Virus record (IMG/VR): IMGVR_UViG_3300028591_000144
DNA: 64,000 bases
DNA from: a virus
Reading direction: 5' to 3' (one strand)
Shown here: piece after piece, positions 7,255-62,324 of the stretch
Numbering within the stretch: position 1 is the first letter of the stretch
Layout of the letters: the number at the start of each line of letters is the position of its first letter
The notes under the pieces: model-generated
The model's database searches: none
The model's input: only the letters and a program-made list of their open reading frames with translations
Told to the model about the DNA's origin: nothing
Position numbers and translations under genes: made by a program

Positions 7255-7290
7255 TTGACTTTATAAAAAAAATATGATATAATATATATA
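7255..7290 (+). promoter_or_regulatory. First copy of the second conserved promoter class (TTGACTTTATAAAAAAAATATGATATAATATATATAG)
   Basis: Same motif as the ~30 copies downstream (see the feature at 18863). Confidence 0.65.
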
Positions 7291-7312
7291 GTTAATATAA
7301 GGAGTATTAAAA

Positions 7313-7714
7313 ATGAGTAAAAAAGGCTTAGATGAAAATCAAATTACTTTTTTAATGCAAAAATTAAAAATATCTCGTGAAGAAGCTATTGATATGCTAG
7401 CTTATGATGATGATGTAAATCACGATCGTCCTACAGAGCATGACTTAACTCCAGATCAAAAAGCTTTTGTCCAAGATATGGTAAGACATTGTGAACATAA
7501 AAAATATGGCCATGTTGAAAGAAATCGTAAACCTAATGATTTAAAAATTGCAATTATGGCGGAAATTGCTGAATTTTTACGAGAAGATGCACAAGGTCAA
7601 GTGTATGAAGATGTAGAATTAACAAATATTTCTCGAATGATGCACTTTAAAGTAGGAAATAAAGAGTTTGATCTACAATTAATTGAAAAAAGACATCCAA
7701 ATAAAGAAAAATAA
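7313..7714 (+). CDS. Hypothetical protein, family B paralogue
   Basis: RBS AAGGAG. N-terminus similar to the protein of 5495..5866. Confidence 0.7.
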   Translation: MSKKGLDENQITFLMQKLKISREEAIDMLAYDDDVNHDRPTEHDLTPDQKAFVQDMVRHCEHKKYGHVERNRKPNDLKIAIMAEIAEFLREDAQGQVYEDVELTNISRMMHFKVGNKEFDLQLIEKRHPNKEK

Positions 7715-7971
7715 TATCTTTTTATGAGTTTTTAGGGTAAAAATAATACTTTTTACCCTATTTTTATATAATTTTATAATGGTATTTTTAGCGCATTCTC
7801 CACGCGCGTCCCTCGCCTGGAGAATGCGTTTTTACTATTATATTATACTTTTGTATTTTTTTTATATATTATTTTACTTTTTATACAAAATAATATTTTC
7901 CTGTAATACTTTTTCTTTTATTAATAACAGTCTAATAGCAATATGTTATAGTGGTTTACATAAGAAAGTCG

Positions 7972-8000
7972 TTGACATAATATCTTTTTTTTGTTATAAT
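7972..8000 (+). promoter_or_regulatory. Consensus sigma70 promoter (TTGACA-17-TATAAT)
   Basis: -35 at 7972-7977, 17-nt spacer, -10 at 7995-8000. Immediately upstream of the RBS and ATG at 8038. Confidence 0.7.
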
Positions 8001-8037
8001 GACCACAGAAACCAAGAGAAAAGGAGAGTACAGAAAA

Positions 8038-8133
8038 ATGACTTGGACTTTTATAATTTTGGGTACAATTATTGGATGTTTATGCGGCATGGCCGTATAT
8101 GTACAGATTGAAGAGTGGAAGGATCGACATTGA
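8038..8133 (+). CDS. Small hydrophobic peptide (31 aa, MTWTFIILGTIIGCLCGMAVYVQIEEWKDRH)
   Basis: Perfect RBS AAAAGGAGAG 8 nt upstream, consensus promoter, single predicted TM helix. Below the track's 60-aa cutoff. Confidence 0.5.
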   Translation: MTWTFIILGTIIGCLCGMAVYVQIEEWKDRH

Positions 8134-8279
8134 TGGATACTTATATTACTCTTACTATCCTTTTAGTTTTAAGTATATATGGCATTTATCATCTTCTAAA
8201 AGCTTTTGCAGAGCATGAGCAATTAGAAAAGCGCCAATTTTTTAAACCATTACCTCAATATAAAGGGAAGGATAGATAA
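8133..8279 (+). CDS. Small hydrophobic peptide (48 aa, MDTYITLTILLVLSIYGIYHLL...), start overlaps the previous stop (ATGA)
   Basis: Translationally coupled with 8038..8133. Followed by two hairpin terminators at 8264-8335. Confidence 0.45.
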   Translation: MDTYITLTILLVLSIYGIYHLLKAFAEHEQLEKRQFFKPLPQYKGKDR

Positions 8280-8344
8280 AAATCCTTCCCTTTAAAACGC
8301 TTTCTTGTCGGGCGCTCACCCCGGCAAGAAAGCGTGTTTGACTT

Positions 8345-8432
8345 ATTGTATAATAAATGTAATTTTCCAGGCGATCTTTTTGTGCAATATTCCATCTTGT
8401 ATTTTCCGAAAAACCTGCTATAATAATAAGTG
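8345..8432 (+). promoter_or_regulatory. Early promoter/operator module, copy 9
   Basis: TTGTATAATAAATGTAATTTTCCAGGCGATCTTTTTGTGCAATATTCCATCTTGTATTTTCCGAAAAACCTGCTATAATAATAAG. Confidence 0.6.
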
Positions 8433-8522
8433 TCAAGAGGGAGAGGCGCCGAGCCGCAAGAGTTATGGTTTATCTGCGCGGTTGCCAAAGCCATAAAAGA
8501 AAAATAAAATGCCGAAAACCTC

Positions 8523-8551
8523 TTGACAAGCCACTGAAAATGTGGTATAAT
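8523..8551 (+). promoter_or_regulatory. Consensus sigma70 promoter with extended -10 (TTGACA-17-TGGTATAAT), member of tandem array 1
   Basis: CCTCTTGACAAGCCACTGAAAATGTGGTATAATGAATACAGTCAAGAGG. The promoter is framed by the inverted repeat CCTCTTGAC/GTCAAGAGG. Confidence 0.75.
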
Positions 8552-8633
8552 GAATACAGTCAAGAGGGGTGGTTGGAGCCCATACCCCACGACCGCAAGG
8601 CCAAAAATTTTCAAAGAAATTTGAAAAACCCTC

Positions 8634-8662
8634 TTGACAAACCACACAATGTGTGCTATAAT
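8634..8662 (+). promoter_or_regulatory. Consensus sigma70 promoter (TTGACA-17-TATAAT), array 1
   Basis: -35 at 8634-8639, -10 at 8657-8662. Same CCTCTTGACAA framing. Confidence 0.75.
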
Positions 8663-8809
8663 AAGTATGTAAAGAGGACAGGGGAGAACGCAAGATAGAA
8701 ATTGGGACTTGCTAATGACCCTCCTCCCCCTCCTCTAAACATAAGCCTTGCCGTCGCTAAAAGGCATGAGAATCTGGCGACAAAAAAATTTAGTAAAGAG
8801 GTTGATACT

Positions 8810-61009: not shown

Positions 61010-61135
61010 ATAAAAAAGAGACACATACAGCAAATTCCTTTTAAGGTATGTAGCTCATTTGGTAGAGCGTTTGTGTGTAAAACAAAATGTATTTGGTTCA
61101 ATTCCAAACTTATCATAAAATGTGTCTCGTTATAT
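61010..61135 (+). ncRNA. Bracketed module (GAGACACATACAGCAA...ATGTGTCTC) enclosing a tRNA-like gene at 61044-61116 (anticodon arm TTTGT-GTGTAAA-ACAAA, anticodon GTA; T-arm TTTGG-TTCAATT-CCAAA)
   Basis: The acceptor stem AGGTATG/CTTATCA has two mismatches but extends into a 10-bp precursor stem TTAAGGTATG/CTTATCATAA. Confidence 0.45.
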
Positions 61136-61222
61136 GTAGTCGTGGCGGAATTGGAATACGCGCAGCACTAAGGATGCTGTGCCTGTAAAGGATTGTGGGT
61201 TCAACTCCCACCGACTGCACCA
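61136..61222 (+). tRNA. tRNA-Leu, class II (long variable arm), anticodon AAG
   Basis: Acceptor GTAGTCG/CGACTGC, D-arm TGGCGGAATTGGAATACGC, anticodon arm CAGCA-CTAAGGA-TGCTG, variable arm about 13 nt, T-arm GTGGG-TTCAACT-CCCAC, then A-CCA. Confidence 0.65.
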
Positions 61223-61244
61223 TATTTAAGAAGGATGATTAATT

Positions 61245-61415
61245 ATGATAGAAATACAAGATGAATATAAAGAAGAATATGAATCTTTATATAACACTTA
61301 TATATCTTATTATAATGCTTATATAAAATCAAGAAATAAAACAAATCAATTTTTATTTTTGATGTTAGGAGCAAGAACTAATTTAAAATATTTTGTTAAA
61401 AAGCATAAAAAATAA
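61245..61415 (+). CDS. Small protein (56 aa) embedded in the tRNA cluster
   Basis: RBS GAAGGA 7 nt upstream of the ATG. Confidence 0.35.
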   Translation: MIEIQDEYKEEYESLYNTYISYYNAYIKSRNKTNQFLFLMLGARTNLKYFVKKHKK

Positions 61416-61424
61416 AAATTTTAT

Positions 61425-61564
61425 GGGTTGGTATGCCTAGCGGCGAGGGCAGGGGACTGTGATGTGTCTAGTAGTCTAGATAATGACCAGTGCAAATCTG
61501 GTACACATACCCAAAATCCCTAACGACTGAAACACCGGTGGTTCGAGTCCACCCCAGCCCACCA
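61425..61564 (+). tRNA. tRNA (140 nt) with a ~60-nt insertion in the anticodon region and a long variable arm. Identity unresolved.
   Basis: Acceptor GGGTTGG/CCAGCCC, D-arm TGCC...GGCA, T-arm GGTGG-TTCGAGT-CCACC, then A-CCA. The insert contains a T-arm-like hairpin CCAG-TGCAAAT-CTGG. Confidence 0.5.
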
Positions 61565-61646
61565 AGGTCTACTGTTTACTAGTTTCATTCGACCATTGGG
61601 ATTGAATTAAAACGTTTCCCTGCAAAACATCTTAGAAACTAGTTTT

Positions 61647-61722
61647 GCGAGCGTAATTCAGTTGGTGGAATGCTCGACTGATAATCGAGTCGACACTGGT
61701 CCGAGTCCAGTCGTTCGCACCA
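61647..61722 (+). tRNA. tRNA-Ile (anticodon GAT)
   Basis: Acceptor GCGAGCG/CGTTCGC, D-arm ATTCAGTTGGTGGAAT, anticodon arm CTCGA-CTGATAA-TCGAG, T-arm ACTGG-TCCGAGT-CCAGT, then A-CCA. Confidence 0.7.
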
Positions 61723-61771
61723 TATTATTTGATTTTTTAAAAAAAATTTGATATAATATTTATAGAAAAGT

Positions 61772-61860
61772 TAAAGGCAGATACAGCAAATTTGTATAGG
61801 ATAAATAAAAAATCTTCAAAATTTTTTAGAAATGGTTCAAATCCATTAAATTTCTGTCTT
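61772..61860 (+). ncRNA. Promoter-driven bracketed module (AGGCAGATACAGCAAATTT...AAATTTCTGTCTT) containing an AT-rich minimal tRNA-like fold with apparent anticodon TCA
   Basis: Class-2 promoter at 61729. T-arm ATGG-TTCAAAT-CCAT. Anticodon arm AAAAAT-CTTCAAA-ATTTTT. The fold is in very AT-rich sequence, so chance pairing is likely. Confidence 0.3.
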
Positions 61861-61892
61861 GTTTTTTAAAATAATTAAAGGAGAATTTTTAC

Positions 61893-62063
61893 ATGGCACT
61901 CGTTCAAAATGTGAAGCTTAAGGTAACTGCGGCAGATGATTATGAATGGCTGATTAATGATGATACAGGAGAAGTTCTTATTGAAGGAGCTAATCTCGCA
62001 ACTGAAGATATTCTTTGGGCTCTCGGCTATCGGTATGCTATGGAAATTGACCCTGAAGATTAA
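61893..62063 (+). CDS. Small protein, 56 aa
   Basis: RBS AAAGGAG. Confidence 0.45.
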   Translation: MALVQNVKLKVTAADDYEWLINDDTGEVLIEGANLATEDILWALGYRYAMEIDPED

Positions 62064-62107
62064 AAAGTTGACTTTTTAAAAAAAAATATAATATAATTAT
62101 TATAGAA

Positions 62108-62270
62108 TTTAAAGACACATACAGCAATTTTCTAAATTGGAAAATATTTATTTGGGTTTTCCTTTACTTGAGTAAGATAAAAGATCGTATTTTGTACGAT
62201 ATTTTGAGGGCGCAATCACTCGTTAAAAATGGTCGTCAGCATAAGACGTAAAAATATGTGTCTTGAAGAT
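62108..62270 (+). ncRNA. Promoter-driven bracketed small RNA (AAGACACATACAGCAA...ATATGTGTCTT), about 160 nt, no tRNA fold
   Basis: Class-2 promoter at 62068. Interior hairpins such as CGTATTTTGTACG. Confidence 0.45.
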
Positions 62271-62324
62271 AAGTTATATTGACTTTTTAAAAAAAATTTG
62301 ATATAATATATATAGAAATGAGGG

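What the first reader, a model, noticed from the sequence alone, without database searches (positions are those of the whole stretch)
7255..62320. About 30 near-identical copies of a second promoter class define the middle/late regulon
The motif TTGA(T/C)TTTTTTAAAAAAAAT(T/A)TGATATAATATTTATAG recurs upstream of most genes from 7.2 kb onward and upstream of every promoter-driven ncRNA. Its composite architecture (-35, A-tract, extended -10 and a conserved downstream TATTTATAG) is far more conserved than host promoters need to be. That implies recognition by a phage-encoded sigma factor or a modified host polymerase. The palindromic variants at 15103 (TTGACTTTTGTCAA) and 17785 (TGATATAAATATTATATCA) fire in both directions.
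Basis: seen in the sequence. Interest (0 to 1): 0.5.

Follow-up and report, generated by a model that had tools for sequence, protein, structure and literature searches.

The report
Phage housekeeping-type early promoter cassettes
About 36 copies of one very strong, ordinary-type (primary sigma factor) promoter head the short operons of small genes and RNA genes in this uncultivated gut or rumen phage, and they look like its early promoters, not a late set needing a new kind of sigma factor.

Summary
The motif is real. A 37-nt consensus, TTGAYTTTTTAAAAAAAATWTGATATAATATWTATAG, occurs about 36 times (33 on +, 4 on -). All copies are intergenic and co-oriented with genes, usually 13-34 nt from the predicted start site to an SD+ATG. 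Some sit ahead of RNA genes (tRNA-Lys, tRNA-Asn, a UCA-anticodon tRNA, ROOL).

Its parts are the textbook primary-sigma (sigmaA/sigma70) promoter of Firmicutes: -35 TTGAYT, 17-bp spacer, TRTG extended -10, TATAAT, A/T discriminator and a purine start. About a third directly follow a terminator hairpin.

The same architecture recurs in more than 70 related large viral contigs. There, the first genes after it are about 3-fold depleted in in-frame TAG codons, and it directly drives most TAG-suppressor tRNAs. That marks it as the pre-code-switch (early-type) class, not middle/late.

No sigma gene lies in the window. Eight motif-bearing viral contigs, at least five of them distant relatives of this phage, encode a SigA-like sigma without region 1.1 but with -35/-10-reading residues mostly conserved. 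In most of them it is itself headed by this promoter.

So a phage sigma may take part, but it would be of housekeeping specificity. Known kind, new member, modest interest.

The parts
7255..7291 (+). class-B promoter; strong hairpin upstream; heads gene 7313-7714
   Evidence: 1 mismatch to the 37-mer
10915..10951 (+). class-B promoter; no SD-ORF within 400 nt; palindromic repeat arrays follow at 11157-11695
12320..12356 (-). class-B promoter on the minus strand; upstream of minus-strand gene 12225-12022
12412..12448 (-). class-B variant (TAAAAT -10) on the minus strand
   Evidence: 25 bits
12778..12814 (-). class-B promoter on the minus strand; no ORF downstream
12997..13033 (+). class-B promoter
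15104..15140 (+). class-B variant whose -35 lies in the palindrome TTGACTTTTGTCAA; heads TAG-recoded gene 15162-15929
15089..15117 (-). minus-strand arm of the same palindrome: TTGACA-17-TAAAAT. Followed by a 59-aa ORF and a 110-aa wHTH initiator-like ORF, each with 2 in-frame TAG
16427..16463 (+). class-B promoter; hairpin upstream; tandem with the next copy
16547..16583 (+). class-B promoter; heads gene 16609-16833
17782..17818 (-). weak class-B variant (TTTACA-17-TGATATAAT); heads minus-strand gene 17757-17533
17780..17789 (+). plus-strand arm of the 17785 palindrome: TGATATAAAT, an extended -10 with no -35; about 40 nt before recoded gene 17831-18600
   Evidence: inference
18863..18899 (+). 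class-B promoter; heads 18931-19221
20383..20419 (+). class-B promoter (TAAAAT -10); heads 20438-20770
21046..21082 (+). class-B promoter; heads 21105-21395
22195..22231 (+). class-B promoter (TAAAAT -10), about 120 nt before tRNA-Lys 22354
22710..22746 (+). class-B promoter; short non-coding transcript
22874..22910 (+). class-B promoter; short non-coding transcript
23010..23046 (+). class-B variant (TTGAAA, TAAAAT)
23690..23726 (+). class-B promoter; strong terminator hairpin upstream (-21.8 kcal/mol); heads 23754-24269
25602..25638 (+). class-B variant (TTTACT); hairpin upstream; heads 25653
28652..28688 (+). class-B promoter; heads 28714-28983
31326..31362 (+). class-B promoter abutting terminator hairpin 31297-31325
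32548..32584 (+). class-B variant; its -35 lies inside terminator hairpin 32524-32558; heads 32615-33514
33564..33600 (+). class-B promoter after terminator 33524-33559
34745..34781 (+). class-B promoter; heads 34809-35102
37653..37689 (+). class-B variant (TTGAAA); heads the 815-aa MVP-shoulder-like gene
40218..40254 (+). class-B promoter after a hairpin; heads the RNA ligase gene 40278-41531
44700..44736 (+). class-B promoter after a terminator hairpin
48356..48392 (+). class-B variant (T-rich spacer) after a hairpin; heads the PnrA/Bmp-like gene
49688..49724 (+). class-B promoter after a hairpin; heads the 592-aa gene
51532..51568 (+). class-B promoter; long leader or non-coding transcript
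52171..52207 (+). class-B variant (TTGCAT, TAAAAT)
   Evidence: 28 bits
52896..52932 (+). class-B promoter; heads the radical-SAM gene
54445..54481 (+). class-B promoter; followed by 1.3 kb with only short ORFs that lack a good SD, up to the tmRNA
60313..60349 (+). class-B promoter, about 120 nt before tRNA-Asn 60470
61729..61765 (+). class-B promoter (perfect match), about 20 nt before the tRNA with anticodon UCA (61786-61855)
62068..62105 (+). class-B variant with an 18-nt spacer; about 170-nt non-coding transcript
62279..62315 (+). class-B promoter (perfect match), about 80 nt before ROOL RNA 62393-63012

Best explanation
The repeated element is a strong primary-sigma (sigmaA/sigma70) promoter. 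Its parts are -35 TTGAYT, a 17-bp A/T spacer, the Gram-positive TRTG extended -10, -10 TATAAT, an A/T discriminator and a purine start about 7 nt after the -10.

It is packaged as a compact cassette: an optional upstream terminator hairpin, whose U-tract can be the promoter's own TTGATTTTTT; the promoter; then a 13-34-nt leader with SD. These cassettes head short operons of standard-code small genes and RNA genes.

RNA polymerase carrying a housekeeping-type sigma reads it. At the start of infection that must be the host's sigmaA. In some motif-bearing phages a phage-encoded SigA paralogue, itself transcribed from such a cassette, probably joins or replaces the host sigma.

The regulon is the pre-code-switch (early or early-middle) programme. 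It includes the suppressor tRNAs that later allow translation of TAG-recoded genes.

Shown: motif statistics, positions, family-wide conservation, depletion of recoded genes, the suppressor-tRNA link, and the sigma gene in related contigs.

Inferred: which sigma binds, the timing, and the role of the T/A run. That run may add promoter strength through DNA shape, double as a terminator tail, provide homology for cassette shuffling as in T4 PeSLs, or combine these.
For: - Core elements and spacing match the primary-sigma consensus.
- The TRTG motif and a start 6-7 nt after the -10 are as in Kayvirus host-dependent early promoters (PMC7698491).
- Sites are 33:4 co-oriented with genes and intergenic despite 69% coding; about 21 are 13-34 nt from the estimated start to SD+ATG.
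- About 11 of 33 have a hairpin of -14 to -26 kcal/mol ending 0-12 nt before the -35.
- In 26 loci chosen only by RNA-ligase homology, TTGA-N19-TATAAT occurs about 115 times on the gene strand and 3 times on the other. The family consensus is TTGAcTTTTtt.aAAattTaT..TATAATATaTaTa.AAaa.
- In relatives, first genes after the promoter carry 1.22 in-frame TAG per 1000 codons against 3.91 for other genes. Genes with >=2 TAG are 4.7% against 14.2% (p=1.7e-5).
- The 100 nt upstream of recoded genes carries the core promoter in 8% of cases, against 34% for standard-code genes.
- 17 of 26 suppressor tRNAs have the promoter within 200 nt upstream, against 46 of 314 other tRNAs (odds ratio 11, p=4e-8).
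- The SigA-like sigma in 8 motif-bearing contigs has Pfam regions 1.2, 2, 3 and 4, hits solved SigA structures at E=2e-81, has no in-frame TAG, and in most cases has a class-B cassette directly upstream.
- Precedents: T4 'uber' early promoters read by host RNAP (PMC2988021), PeSL promoter/stem-loop cassettes (PMC2839356), SPO1 early genes read by host sigmaA (PMC13401047).
Against: - There are no transcription-start or time-course data, so timing and the identity of the sigma are inferred.
- The T-run/A-run of the spacer (about 10-14 bits) is not explained by known sigma contacts and is conserved across the family, so an extra factor may read it.
- Several recoded genes are still served by sigma70-like promoters (15127 '+', the 15117 '-' arm), so the link to standard-code genes is statistical and not absolute.
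- Most comparison loci were fetched because they contain the motif, which biases the sample; the RNA-ligase set is the only unbiased one.
- The rest of this phage's genome was not available, so its own sigma or anti-sigma content is unknown.
Confidence: 0.7

Rival explanations
1. The composite motif is a distinct middle/late promoter class that host holoenzyme cannot use efficiently. It needs a phage-encoded sigma of new specificity or a phage-modified polymerase.
For: - The motif carries far more information than a host promoter needs: spacer 14 bits and downstream 12 nt 8.8 bits in the window.
- A different sigma70-like class with TTGACA and a GC-containing spacer occupies 3-10 kb, so two classes could be temporally separated.
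- Motif-bearing viral contigs do encode a sigma factor.
Against: - The -35, spacing, TRTG and -10 are consensus for the primary sigma. Known phage-sigma late promoters lack a -35 and depart from TATAAT (PMC7698491).
- The phage sigma found is SigA-like with the -35 and -10 reading residues mostly conserved, and it is itself expressed from this promoter, so the host enzyme must fire it first.
- No sigma or anti-sigma domain was found in about 101 window proteins scanned in bulk plus 10 scanned singly.
- The regulon is depleted in recoded genes and contains the suppressor tRNAs.
- No product recognisable by Pfam/PHROGs is a virion structural protein.
Confidence: 0.1
2. These are housekeeping-type promoters, but the conserved, nearly palindromic T-run/A-run in the spacer (and perhaps the TATAG start region) is an operator or architectural site for a phage or host DNA-binding protein. 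That protein switches the whole class on or off together, giving it a timing different from the TTGACA class at 3-10 kb.
For: - The T5-6/A7-8 block is self-complementary, lies between the hexamers where repressors commonly bind, and is conserved family-wide although lineage-flavoured.
- The other sigma70-like class lacks it.
- The window encodes small DNA-binding proteins: a MarR/wHTH protein, a PC4-like protein and a PHROG 'DNA binding protein'.
Against: - No candidate regulator is linked to the motif.
- A/T-rich spacers are common in strong promoters of low-GC organisms.
- In about a third of copies the T-run is explained as a terminator tail.
- The length of the A-run varies between lineages.
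Confidence: 0.15
3. The repeats are primarily recombination or mobility modules (mobile regulatory cassettes like T4 PeSLs). Their near-identity then reflects recent spread and gene conversion and not selection on promoter function.
For: - The terminator+promoter+SD cassette structure sits in an ORFan-rich, highly mosaic region.
- The RNA ligase ortholog has the cassette in some relatives and not in others.
- Precedent: PMC2839356, PMC4122927.
Against: - The same architecture persists in relatives with only 40-70% protein identity, with lineage-specific flavours, which argues for long-term selection.
- The one breakpoint examined (L148 against the window, at 63355) lies at a tRNA end and not at a cassette.
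- This reading is compatible with promoter function and does not replace it.
Confidence: 0.05

Closest known systems
Host-dependent early promoters of large virulent Firmicute phages (Kayvirus vB_SauM-515A1, SPO1 host-takeover module)
   Same: - Dozens of copies of a near-consensus sigmaA promoter, TTGACW-17-TRTGnTATAAT, with a start 6-7 nt after the -10.
- They head many short transcription units of small early genes with strong SD sites and are separated by intrinsic terminators (PMC7698491, PMC6873191, PMC13401047).
   Different: - Here the spacer itself is conserved (T-run then A-run) and -35 positions 5-6 are YT, not CA.
- The phage is uncultivated and TAG-recoded.
- The promoter also drives tRNAs, a suppressor-type tRNA and ROOL RNA.
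- There are no expression data.
T4 early promoters and PeSL (promoter-early stem-loop) cassettes of T4-like phages
   Same: - 'Uber' promoters with consensus beyond the host recognition elements, read by host RNA polymerase (PMC2988021).
- Composite promoter plus stem-loop terminator cassettes concentrated in ORFan-rich hyperplastic regions (PMC2839356, PMC4122927).
   Different: - Different host phylum and sequence.
- Only about a third of copies carry a strong hairpin.
- There is no UP-element-like conservation upstream of the -35.
- Cassette-mediated recombination was not shown here.
RpoD-like sigma factors encoded by jumbo phages
   Same: A complete sigma close to cellular RpoD/SigA, probably acquired from cells and used to recruit host core polymerase (PMC7824862). 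The 300-aa protein in 8 motif-bearing contigs has regions 1.2-4 and E=2e-81 to SigA.
   Different: - It lacks region 1.1.
- It carries substitutions at two DNA-facing positions (ATYW for ATWW; SNMVE/ANMVE for VHMVE).
- It is expressed from the same housekeeping-type promoter it should recognise.
- It was not found in the window itself.
Stop-codon-recoded (code 15) gut phages such as the Agate, Sapphire, Jade and Lak clades
   Same: - Large phages of animal guts with in-frame TAG in a subset of genes and phage suppressor tRNAs.
- A proposed early standard-code to late recoded switch (bioRxiv 10.1101/2021.08.26.457843).
- Intron-containing tRNAs (PMC13037316).
   Different: - Promoters were not analysed in that work.
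- Here a defined promoter class is tied to the standard-code genes and to the suppressor tRNA genes.
- Clade membership of this window was not tested.

Membership tests
Primary-sigma (sigma70/sigmaA) -35/-10 promoter | -35 hexamer close to TTGACA | tested here: met
   TTGA is invariant in 27 of the 30 seed copies and TTGAYT is typical
Primary-sigma (sigma70/sigmaA) -35/-10 promoter | 17 +/- 1 bp spacer | tested here: met
   17 bp in all copies but one (62068, 18 bp)
Primary-sigma (sigma70/sigmaA) -35/-10 promoter | -10 hexamer TATAAT, with the TRTG extended -10 typical of Firmicutes | tested here: met
   The -10 is TATAAT (TAAAAT in 6 copies). T at -15 is nearly invariant and G at -14 is present in about half
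Primary-sigma (sigma70/sigmaA) -35/-10 promoter | Located upstream of, and co-oriented with, genes | tested here: met
   Sites are 33:4 with gene orientation, none in credible CDS, and 13-34 nt from the estimated start to SD+ATG
Primary-sigma (sigma70/sigmaA) -35/-10 promoter | Transcription starts mapped 6-8 nt after the -10; holoenzyme-dependent initiation | not testable with these tools
   No transcript data are available and the host is uncultivated
Phage-specific-sigma late promoters (Kayvirus late, SPO1 gp28 or gp33/34, T4 gp55 type) | No sigma70 -35, and a -10 that departs from TATAAT | tested here: not met
   The -35 and TATAAT are both consensus. Compared with TGTTATATTA without a -35 in PMC7698491
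Phage-specific-sigma late promoters (Kayvirus late, SPO1 gp28 or gp33/34, T4 gp55 type) | Serve structural, lysis or late genes | tested here: not met
   No product recognisable by Pfam/PHROGs is a virion structural protein. The regulon is depleted in recoded genes
Phage-specific-sigma late promoters (Kayvirus late, SPO1 gp28 or gp33/34, T4 gp55 type) | A divergent phage sigma is encoded | tested here: inconclusive
   None in the window. Motif-bearing contigs encode a SigA-like sigma, not a divergent one. The rest of this genome was not seen
T4 middle promoters (sigma appropriation) | The -35 is replaced by an activator box at about -30 | tested here: not met
   The -35 TTGA is retained at the canonical distance
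PeSL-like mobile regulatory cassettes | Strong sigma70-like promoter joined to a stem-loop terminator | tested here: inconclusive
   About 11 of 33 copies have a strong abutting hairpin and the others do not
PeSL-like mobile regulatory cassettes | Concentrated in ORFan-rich variable regions | tested here: met
   Most window genes are small and have no family hit. Gene content varies strongly among relatives
PeSL-like mobile regulatory cassettes | Recombination between cassettes (indel junctions, mini-circles) | not tested
   Only one junction was inspected, and it lies at a tRNA end

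The most novel reading that the evidence does not exclude
The over-determined promoter and a phage-encoded SigA paralogue lacking region 1.1 may form a self-amplifying circuit. Host sigmaA would fire the class first. The phage sigma, made from one of these cassettes, would then keep the class running while the host sigma is disabled or titrated.

Because the same class drives the suppressor tRNAs, this circuit would set the time of the switch to the recoded genetic code. The conserved T/A spacer and start region would be tuned to the phage sigma (its ATYW and SNMVE substitutions) or to a partner protein.
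Probability: 0.18. Interest if true: 0.65.

Novelty: new member of a known kind. Interest (0 to 1): 0.33.

Why it matters
It provides a ready-made, high-confidence promoter model for a large group of uncultivated gut and rumen phages of Bacillota. That model can be used to delimit transcription units and to separate pre-switch from post-switch genes in stop-codon-recoded genomes.

It gives strong portable promoters, and terminator-promoter cassettes, for low-GC anaerobes.

The link between this promoter class, the suppressor tRNA genes and, in some motif-bearing phages, a phage SigA-like sigma makes the proposed code switch testable at the level of transcription.

Tried and rejected
It was replaced by a 37-mer and a PWM.
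- Megablast of 10 kb against cultured and deposited phages found nothing. tblastn of the 815-aa protein hit only megaphage records at 42-45% identity.
- Walking out of the window with exact-protein look-ups returned only 1.4-7 kb contigs, so the rest of the genome could not be searched for sigma factors.
- The genome contigs motif scan hit only MAG contigs, mostly Clostridia and Bacilli bins that are probably mis-binned phage. There was no isolate genome and no evidence of host housekeeping promoters with the composite motif.
- Rfam at a relaxed threshold found no known RNA in the ORF-free stretches after several promoters. Aligning those transcripts showed no common family. blastn to relatives matched mostly only the promoters.
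- A k-mer search for a distinct 'late' motif upstream of recoded genes gave nothing convincing. A possible -35-less TTTATATAATATAGAA was seen in only a few cases.
- Signature regexes for multisubunit RNAP (NADFDGD) and T7-like RNAP found none in 1.6 Mb of held sequence.
- The profile-based scan for distant sigma homologs picked over-specific peptides and only added close relatives.

Full report
**Observation**

The window is A/T-rich (30-41% GC), gene-dense and almost entirely transcribed on the + strand. It carries a tmRNA, a ROOL RNA and about 12 tRNAs. It has no close match among deposited phages.

- TTGAYW-N15-19-TATAAT gives 36 hits against 1.5 expected.
- The -10 half, TGATATAATATTTATAG, gives 33 hits at <=3 mismatches against 1.9 expected.
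- A PWM built on positions -24 to +16 around the -10 finds 33 '+' and 4 '-' sites at >=19 bits, while shuffled sequence never exceeds about 5 bits.

The true consensus is the 37-mer TTGAYTTTTTAAAAAAAATWTGATATAATATWTATAG. It has 15 copies at <=3 mismatches (0 expected), 25 at <=5 and 32 of 36 at <=8. Mean pairwise identity is 0.76, against 0.28 for random intergenic 38-mers.

**Anatomy and placement**

All 33 '+' copies lie outside credible coding sequence although 69% of the window is coding. About 21 copies put the predicted start (the purine about 7 nt after TATAAT) 13-34 nt before an SD-preceded start codon.

The others precede RNA genes or ORF-free stretches. These include tRNA-Lys (22354), tRNA-Asn (60470), an A/T-rich tRNA with anticodon UCA (61786) and ROOL (62393).

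The tmRNA and several tRNAs have no copy directly upstream, so 'every ncRNA' is overstated. There are 33 '+' promoters for 88 '+' genes, in operons of 1-9 genes, so 'most genes' is also overstated.

About 11 copies directly follow a hairpin of -14 to -26 kcal/mol. The T-rich tail of that hairpin is the promoter's own TTGATTTTTT. The unit is therefore a terminator-promoter-SD cassette.

**What the conserved blocks are**

The conserved blocks are -35 TTGAYT, a 17-bp spacer, T(A/T)TG(A/G) immediately before TATAAT, an A/T discriminator, and then A/G. This is the primary-sigma promoter with the TRTG extended -10 typical of Firmicutes. It has the same layout as the 58 host-dependent early promoters mapped by RNA-seq in a Staphylococcus Kayvirus, whose phage-sigma late promoters lack a -35 and read TGTTATATTA (PMC7698491).

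Only the T-run/A-run in the spacer is not a known contact. A second sigma70-like class at 3-10 kb (CCTCTTGACA-17-TGnTATAAT, with a GC-containing spacer) lacks that run.

Over-determined consensus does not by itself imply a new sigma. T4 early promoters show 'additional regions of consensus' and are read by unmodified host polymerase (PMC2988021). SPO1 early genes use host sigmaA (PMC13401047).

**Relatives**

Homologs of the window's RNA ligase (56-70% identity) identify 26 IMG/VR contigs of up to 240 kb. The exact motif pattern occurs in at least 120 stretches from more than 70 viral contigs of 5-402 kb, where it clusters in parts of each contig.

Among bacterial genomes the motif pattern occurs only in MAG contigs from ruminant and other animal gut samples, mostly Clostridia and Bacilli bins.

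In the 26 loci chosen without regard to the motif, TTGA-N19-TATAAT occurs about 115 times on the gene strand and 3 times on the other. The family consensus is TTGAcTTTTtt.aAAattTaT..TATAATATaTaTa.AAaa.

The spacer and the 12 nt after the -10 keep 10 and 7.9 bits there, against 14 and 8.8 in the window. The architecture is therefore old and selected, with lineage-specific spacer flavours. The long A8 run belongs to this lineage.

**Timing**

Four '+' genes in the window (15162-15929, 17831-18600, 41629-42549, 43792-44649) and two '-' genes (about 15048-14870 and about 14860-14530) contain in-frame TAG codons and fill gaps in the standard-code ORF map. TAG read-through greatly raises coding coverage in many relatives. 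This is therefore a TAG-recoded phage group of the kind in which recoding marks structural and lysis genes (bioRxiv 10.1101/2021.08.26.457843).

Three results in the relatives bear on timing.
- The first gene after the core promoter has 1.22 in-frame TAG per 1000 codons, against 3.91 for other genes. Genes with >=2 TAG are 4.7% against 14.2% (p=1.7e-5), and the direction is the same in every length bin.
- The core promoter lies within 100 nt upstream of 8% of recoded genes, against 34% of standard-code genes.
- 17 of 26 suppressor tRNAs (23 CUA, 3 UCA) have a typical class-B promoter within 200 nt upstream, against 46 of 314 other tRNAs (odds ratio 11, p=4e-8).

A promoter class that serves standard-code genes and the suppressor tRNAs acts before the code switch. 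None of the window products recognisable by Pfam/PHROGs is a virion structural protein. They are small proteins without known family, an RNA ligase, an SPFH protein, a PnrA-like protein, a radical-SAM enzyme, an MVP-shoulder-like protein, HNH nucleases, a LysM protein with endolysin-family PHROG matches, and a MarR-type protein. 'Middle/late' is not supported. Early versus early-middle cannot be resolved.

**Sigma factors**

No sigma or anti-sigma domain was found in about 101 window proteins scanned in bulk plus 10 scanned singly. No RNAP signature was found in 1.6 Mb of held sequence.

A signature search did find a 300-aa sigma in motif-bearing contigs, now eight contigs in total.
- It has Pfam regions 1.2, 2, 3 and 4 above threshold.
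- It aligns to solved Firmicute SigA at E=2e-81 over regions 1.2-4.2 and lacks region 1.1.
- The -10 and -35 reading segments are mostly conserved: FSTYATYW(V/I)RQ, and VTRERIRQVENKAIRKL or LSKERIRQIENKAIRKL. Visible substitutions are ATYW for ATWW, S/A-N for V-H in the extended -10 contact segment and, in one lineage, TR to SK in region 4.2.
- It has no in-frame TAG.
- In most of these contigs it is headed by its own terminator plus class-B cassette.
- It sits among a gp5.9-like RecBCD inhibitor, Thg1, phosphoesterases, an RNase T-like exonuclease and an RNA ligase of the window's family.

The five sigma contigs that were compared share several proteins with the window at 39-54% identity, so they are distant relatives. 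RpoD-like sigmas in jumbo phages are known (PMC7824862).

The host enzyme must therefore fire the class first. A phage housekeeping-type sigma may then share or take over the same promoters. Whether this window's phage has one is unknown.

**Palindromes**

At 15103 the two -35 hexamers overlap back to back. The '+' arm (TTGACT-17-TATAAT) heads recoded gene 15162-15929. The '-' arm is TTGACA-17-TAAAAT (15117-15089). It is followed by an SD+ATG 59-aa ORF and a 110-aa wHTH ORF with weak replication-initiator PHROG matches.

At 17785 the '-' arm (TTTACA-17-TGATATAAT) heads gene 17757-17533. The '+' arm is an extended -10 (TGATATAAAT) without a -35, about 40 nt before recoded gene 17831-18600. Bidirectional firing is plausible from sequence but untested.

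**Verdict**

The elements are strong housekeeping-type promoter cassettes of the pre-switch programme. They are a new member of a well-known kind: Kayvirus, SPO1 and T4 early promoters, and PeSL-like cassettes.

A phage sigma exists in motif-bearing contigs, but it has housekeeping specificity.

The residual open point is the family-wide T/A spacer. It could reflect promoter strength, a terminator tail, recombination homology, or an unidentified binding protein.

Noticed in passing
window 15162-15929, 17831-18600, 41629-42549, 43792-44649 (+); about 15048-14870 and about 14860-14530 (-): Genes with 2-6 in-frame TAG codons fill gaps in the standard-code ORF map, so the phage appears to recode TAG (code-15-like). 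One of them is an HNH homing endonuclease and one has a signal peptide. No CUA-anticodon tRNA was found in the window, although relatives have 23.
   Followed up: partly
window 13560-15060: Putative replication origin. An extremely A/T-rich TA-repeat block (13560-14000) is followed by ten or more iteron-like GACCCCATTAC repeats (14000-14520). Next to them is a minus-strand wHTH gene with weak replication-initiator (O-like/DnaD-like) matches. Local GC skew is inverted over 10-16 kb.
   Followed up: partly
window 8380-9870 (similar units at 2957, 4642, 6011, 6712): An array of a different sigma70-like promoter class (CCTCTTGACA-17-TGnTATAAT and GCAATATTCCATCTTGTAATTTTCCTGAAATCTGCTATAAT). Each drives an 80-135-nt GC-rich transcript that starts with GUCAAGAGG and ends with CCUCUUGAC, so the ends can pair. 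The 3' arm contains the next promoter's -35. There is no Rfam match.
   Followed up: partly
window 61786-61855: A/T-rich (20% GC) tRNA-like gene with anticodon UCA (opal-suppressor type; 30 bits) about 20 nt after a perfect class-B promoter. Similar tca tRNAs with the promoter occur in L112 and L148. No convincing TGA-recoded gene was seen in the window.
   Followed up: partly
window 56428-56574 and 61425-61561: Two tRNAs with large insertions (77 and 55 nt) in the anticodon loop. Intron-containing tRNAs are reported for recoded jumbo phages. The anticodons were not resolved.
   Followed up: no
L181:5995-6894 (also L179, L183, L028, L055, L109 and others): Eight motif-bearing viral contigs, at least five of them distant relatives, encode a 300-aa SigA-like sigma without region 1.1. 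In most of them it is expressed from a class-B cassette. It lies next to a T7 gp5.9-like RecBCD inhibitor, Thg1, phosphoesterases and an RNA ligase.
   Followed up: yes
window 37716-40163: An 815-aa protein with major-vault-protein shoulder and repeat domains. Its homologs (42-45% identity) are in 462-735-kb uncultured megaphage records (LR756500, LR756501, LR756503).
   Followed up: partly
window 11157-11695: Two arrays of short palindromic repeats downstream of promoter 10915-10951 in an ORF-poor stretch: AAACGACATTTTTGTCGTTTC (about 6 copies) and AGTAACATTTTGTTAC (about 10 copies). They are operator- or iteron-like and unexplained.
   Followed up: no
window 54482-55783: A 1.3-kb stretch with only short ORFs that lack a good SD lies between a class-B promoter and the tmRNA. 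Its last 150 nt (55619-55768) are 86-88% identical in relatives L019 and L020. It may be a long leader or an unknown RNA.
   Followed up: partly
window 60350-60375, 61766-61790, 62106-62130: A conserved box, GACA(G/C)ATACAGCAA, follows the start site of three class-B promoters in the tRNA/ROOL region. Similar boxes occur in relatives (L008, L018, L019). The 62104-62278 transcript has complementary ends (AAGACACATA...TATGTGTCTT).
   Followed up: no
window 57717-63355 against L148 (ENA ERZ27256846 k141_4665943): A second assembly of the same phage is 99.97% identical up to the 3' end of tRNA-Ala and then diverges completely. This is a mosaic junction at a tRNA gene.
   Followed up: partly
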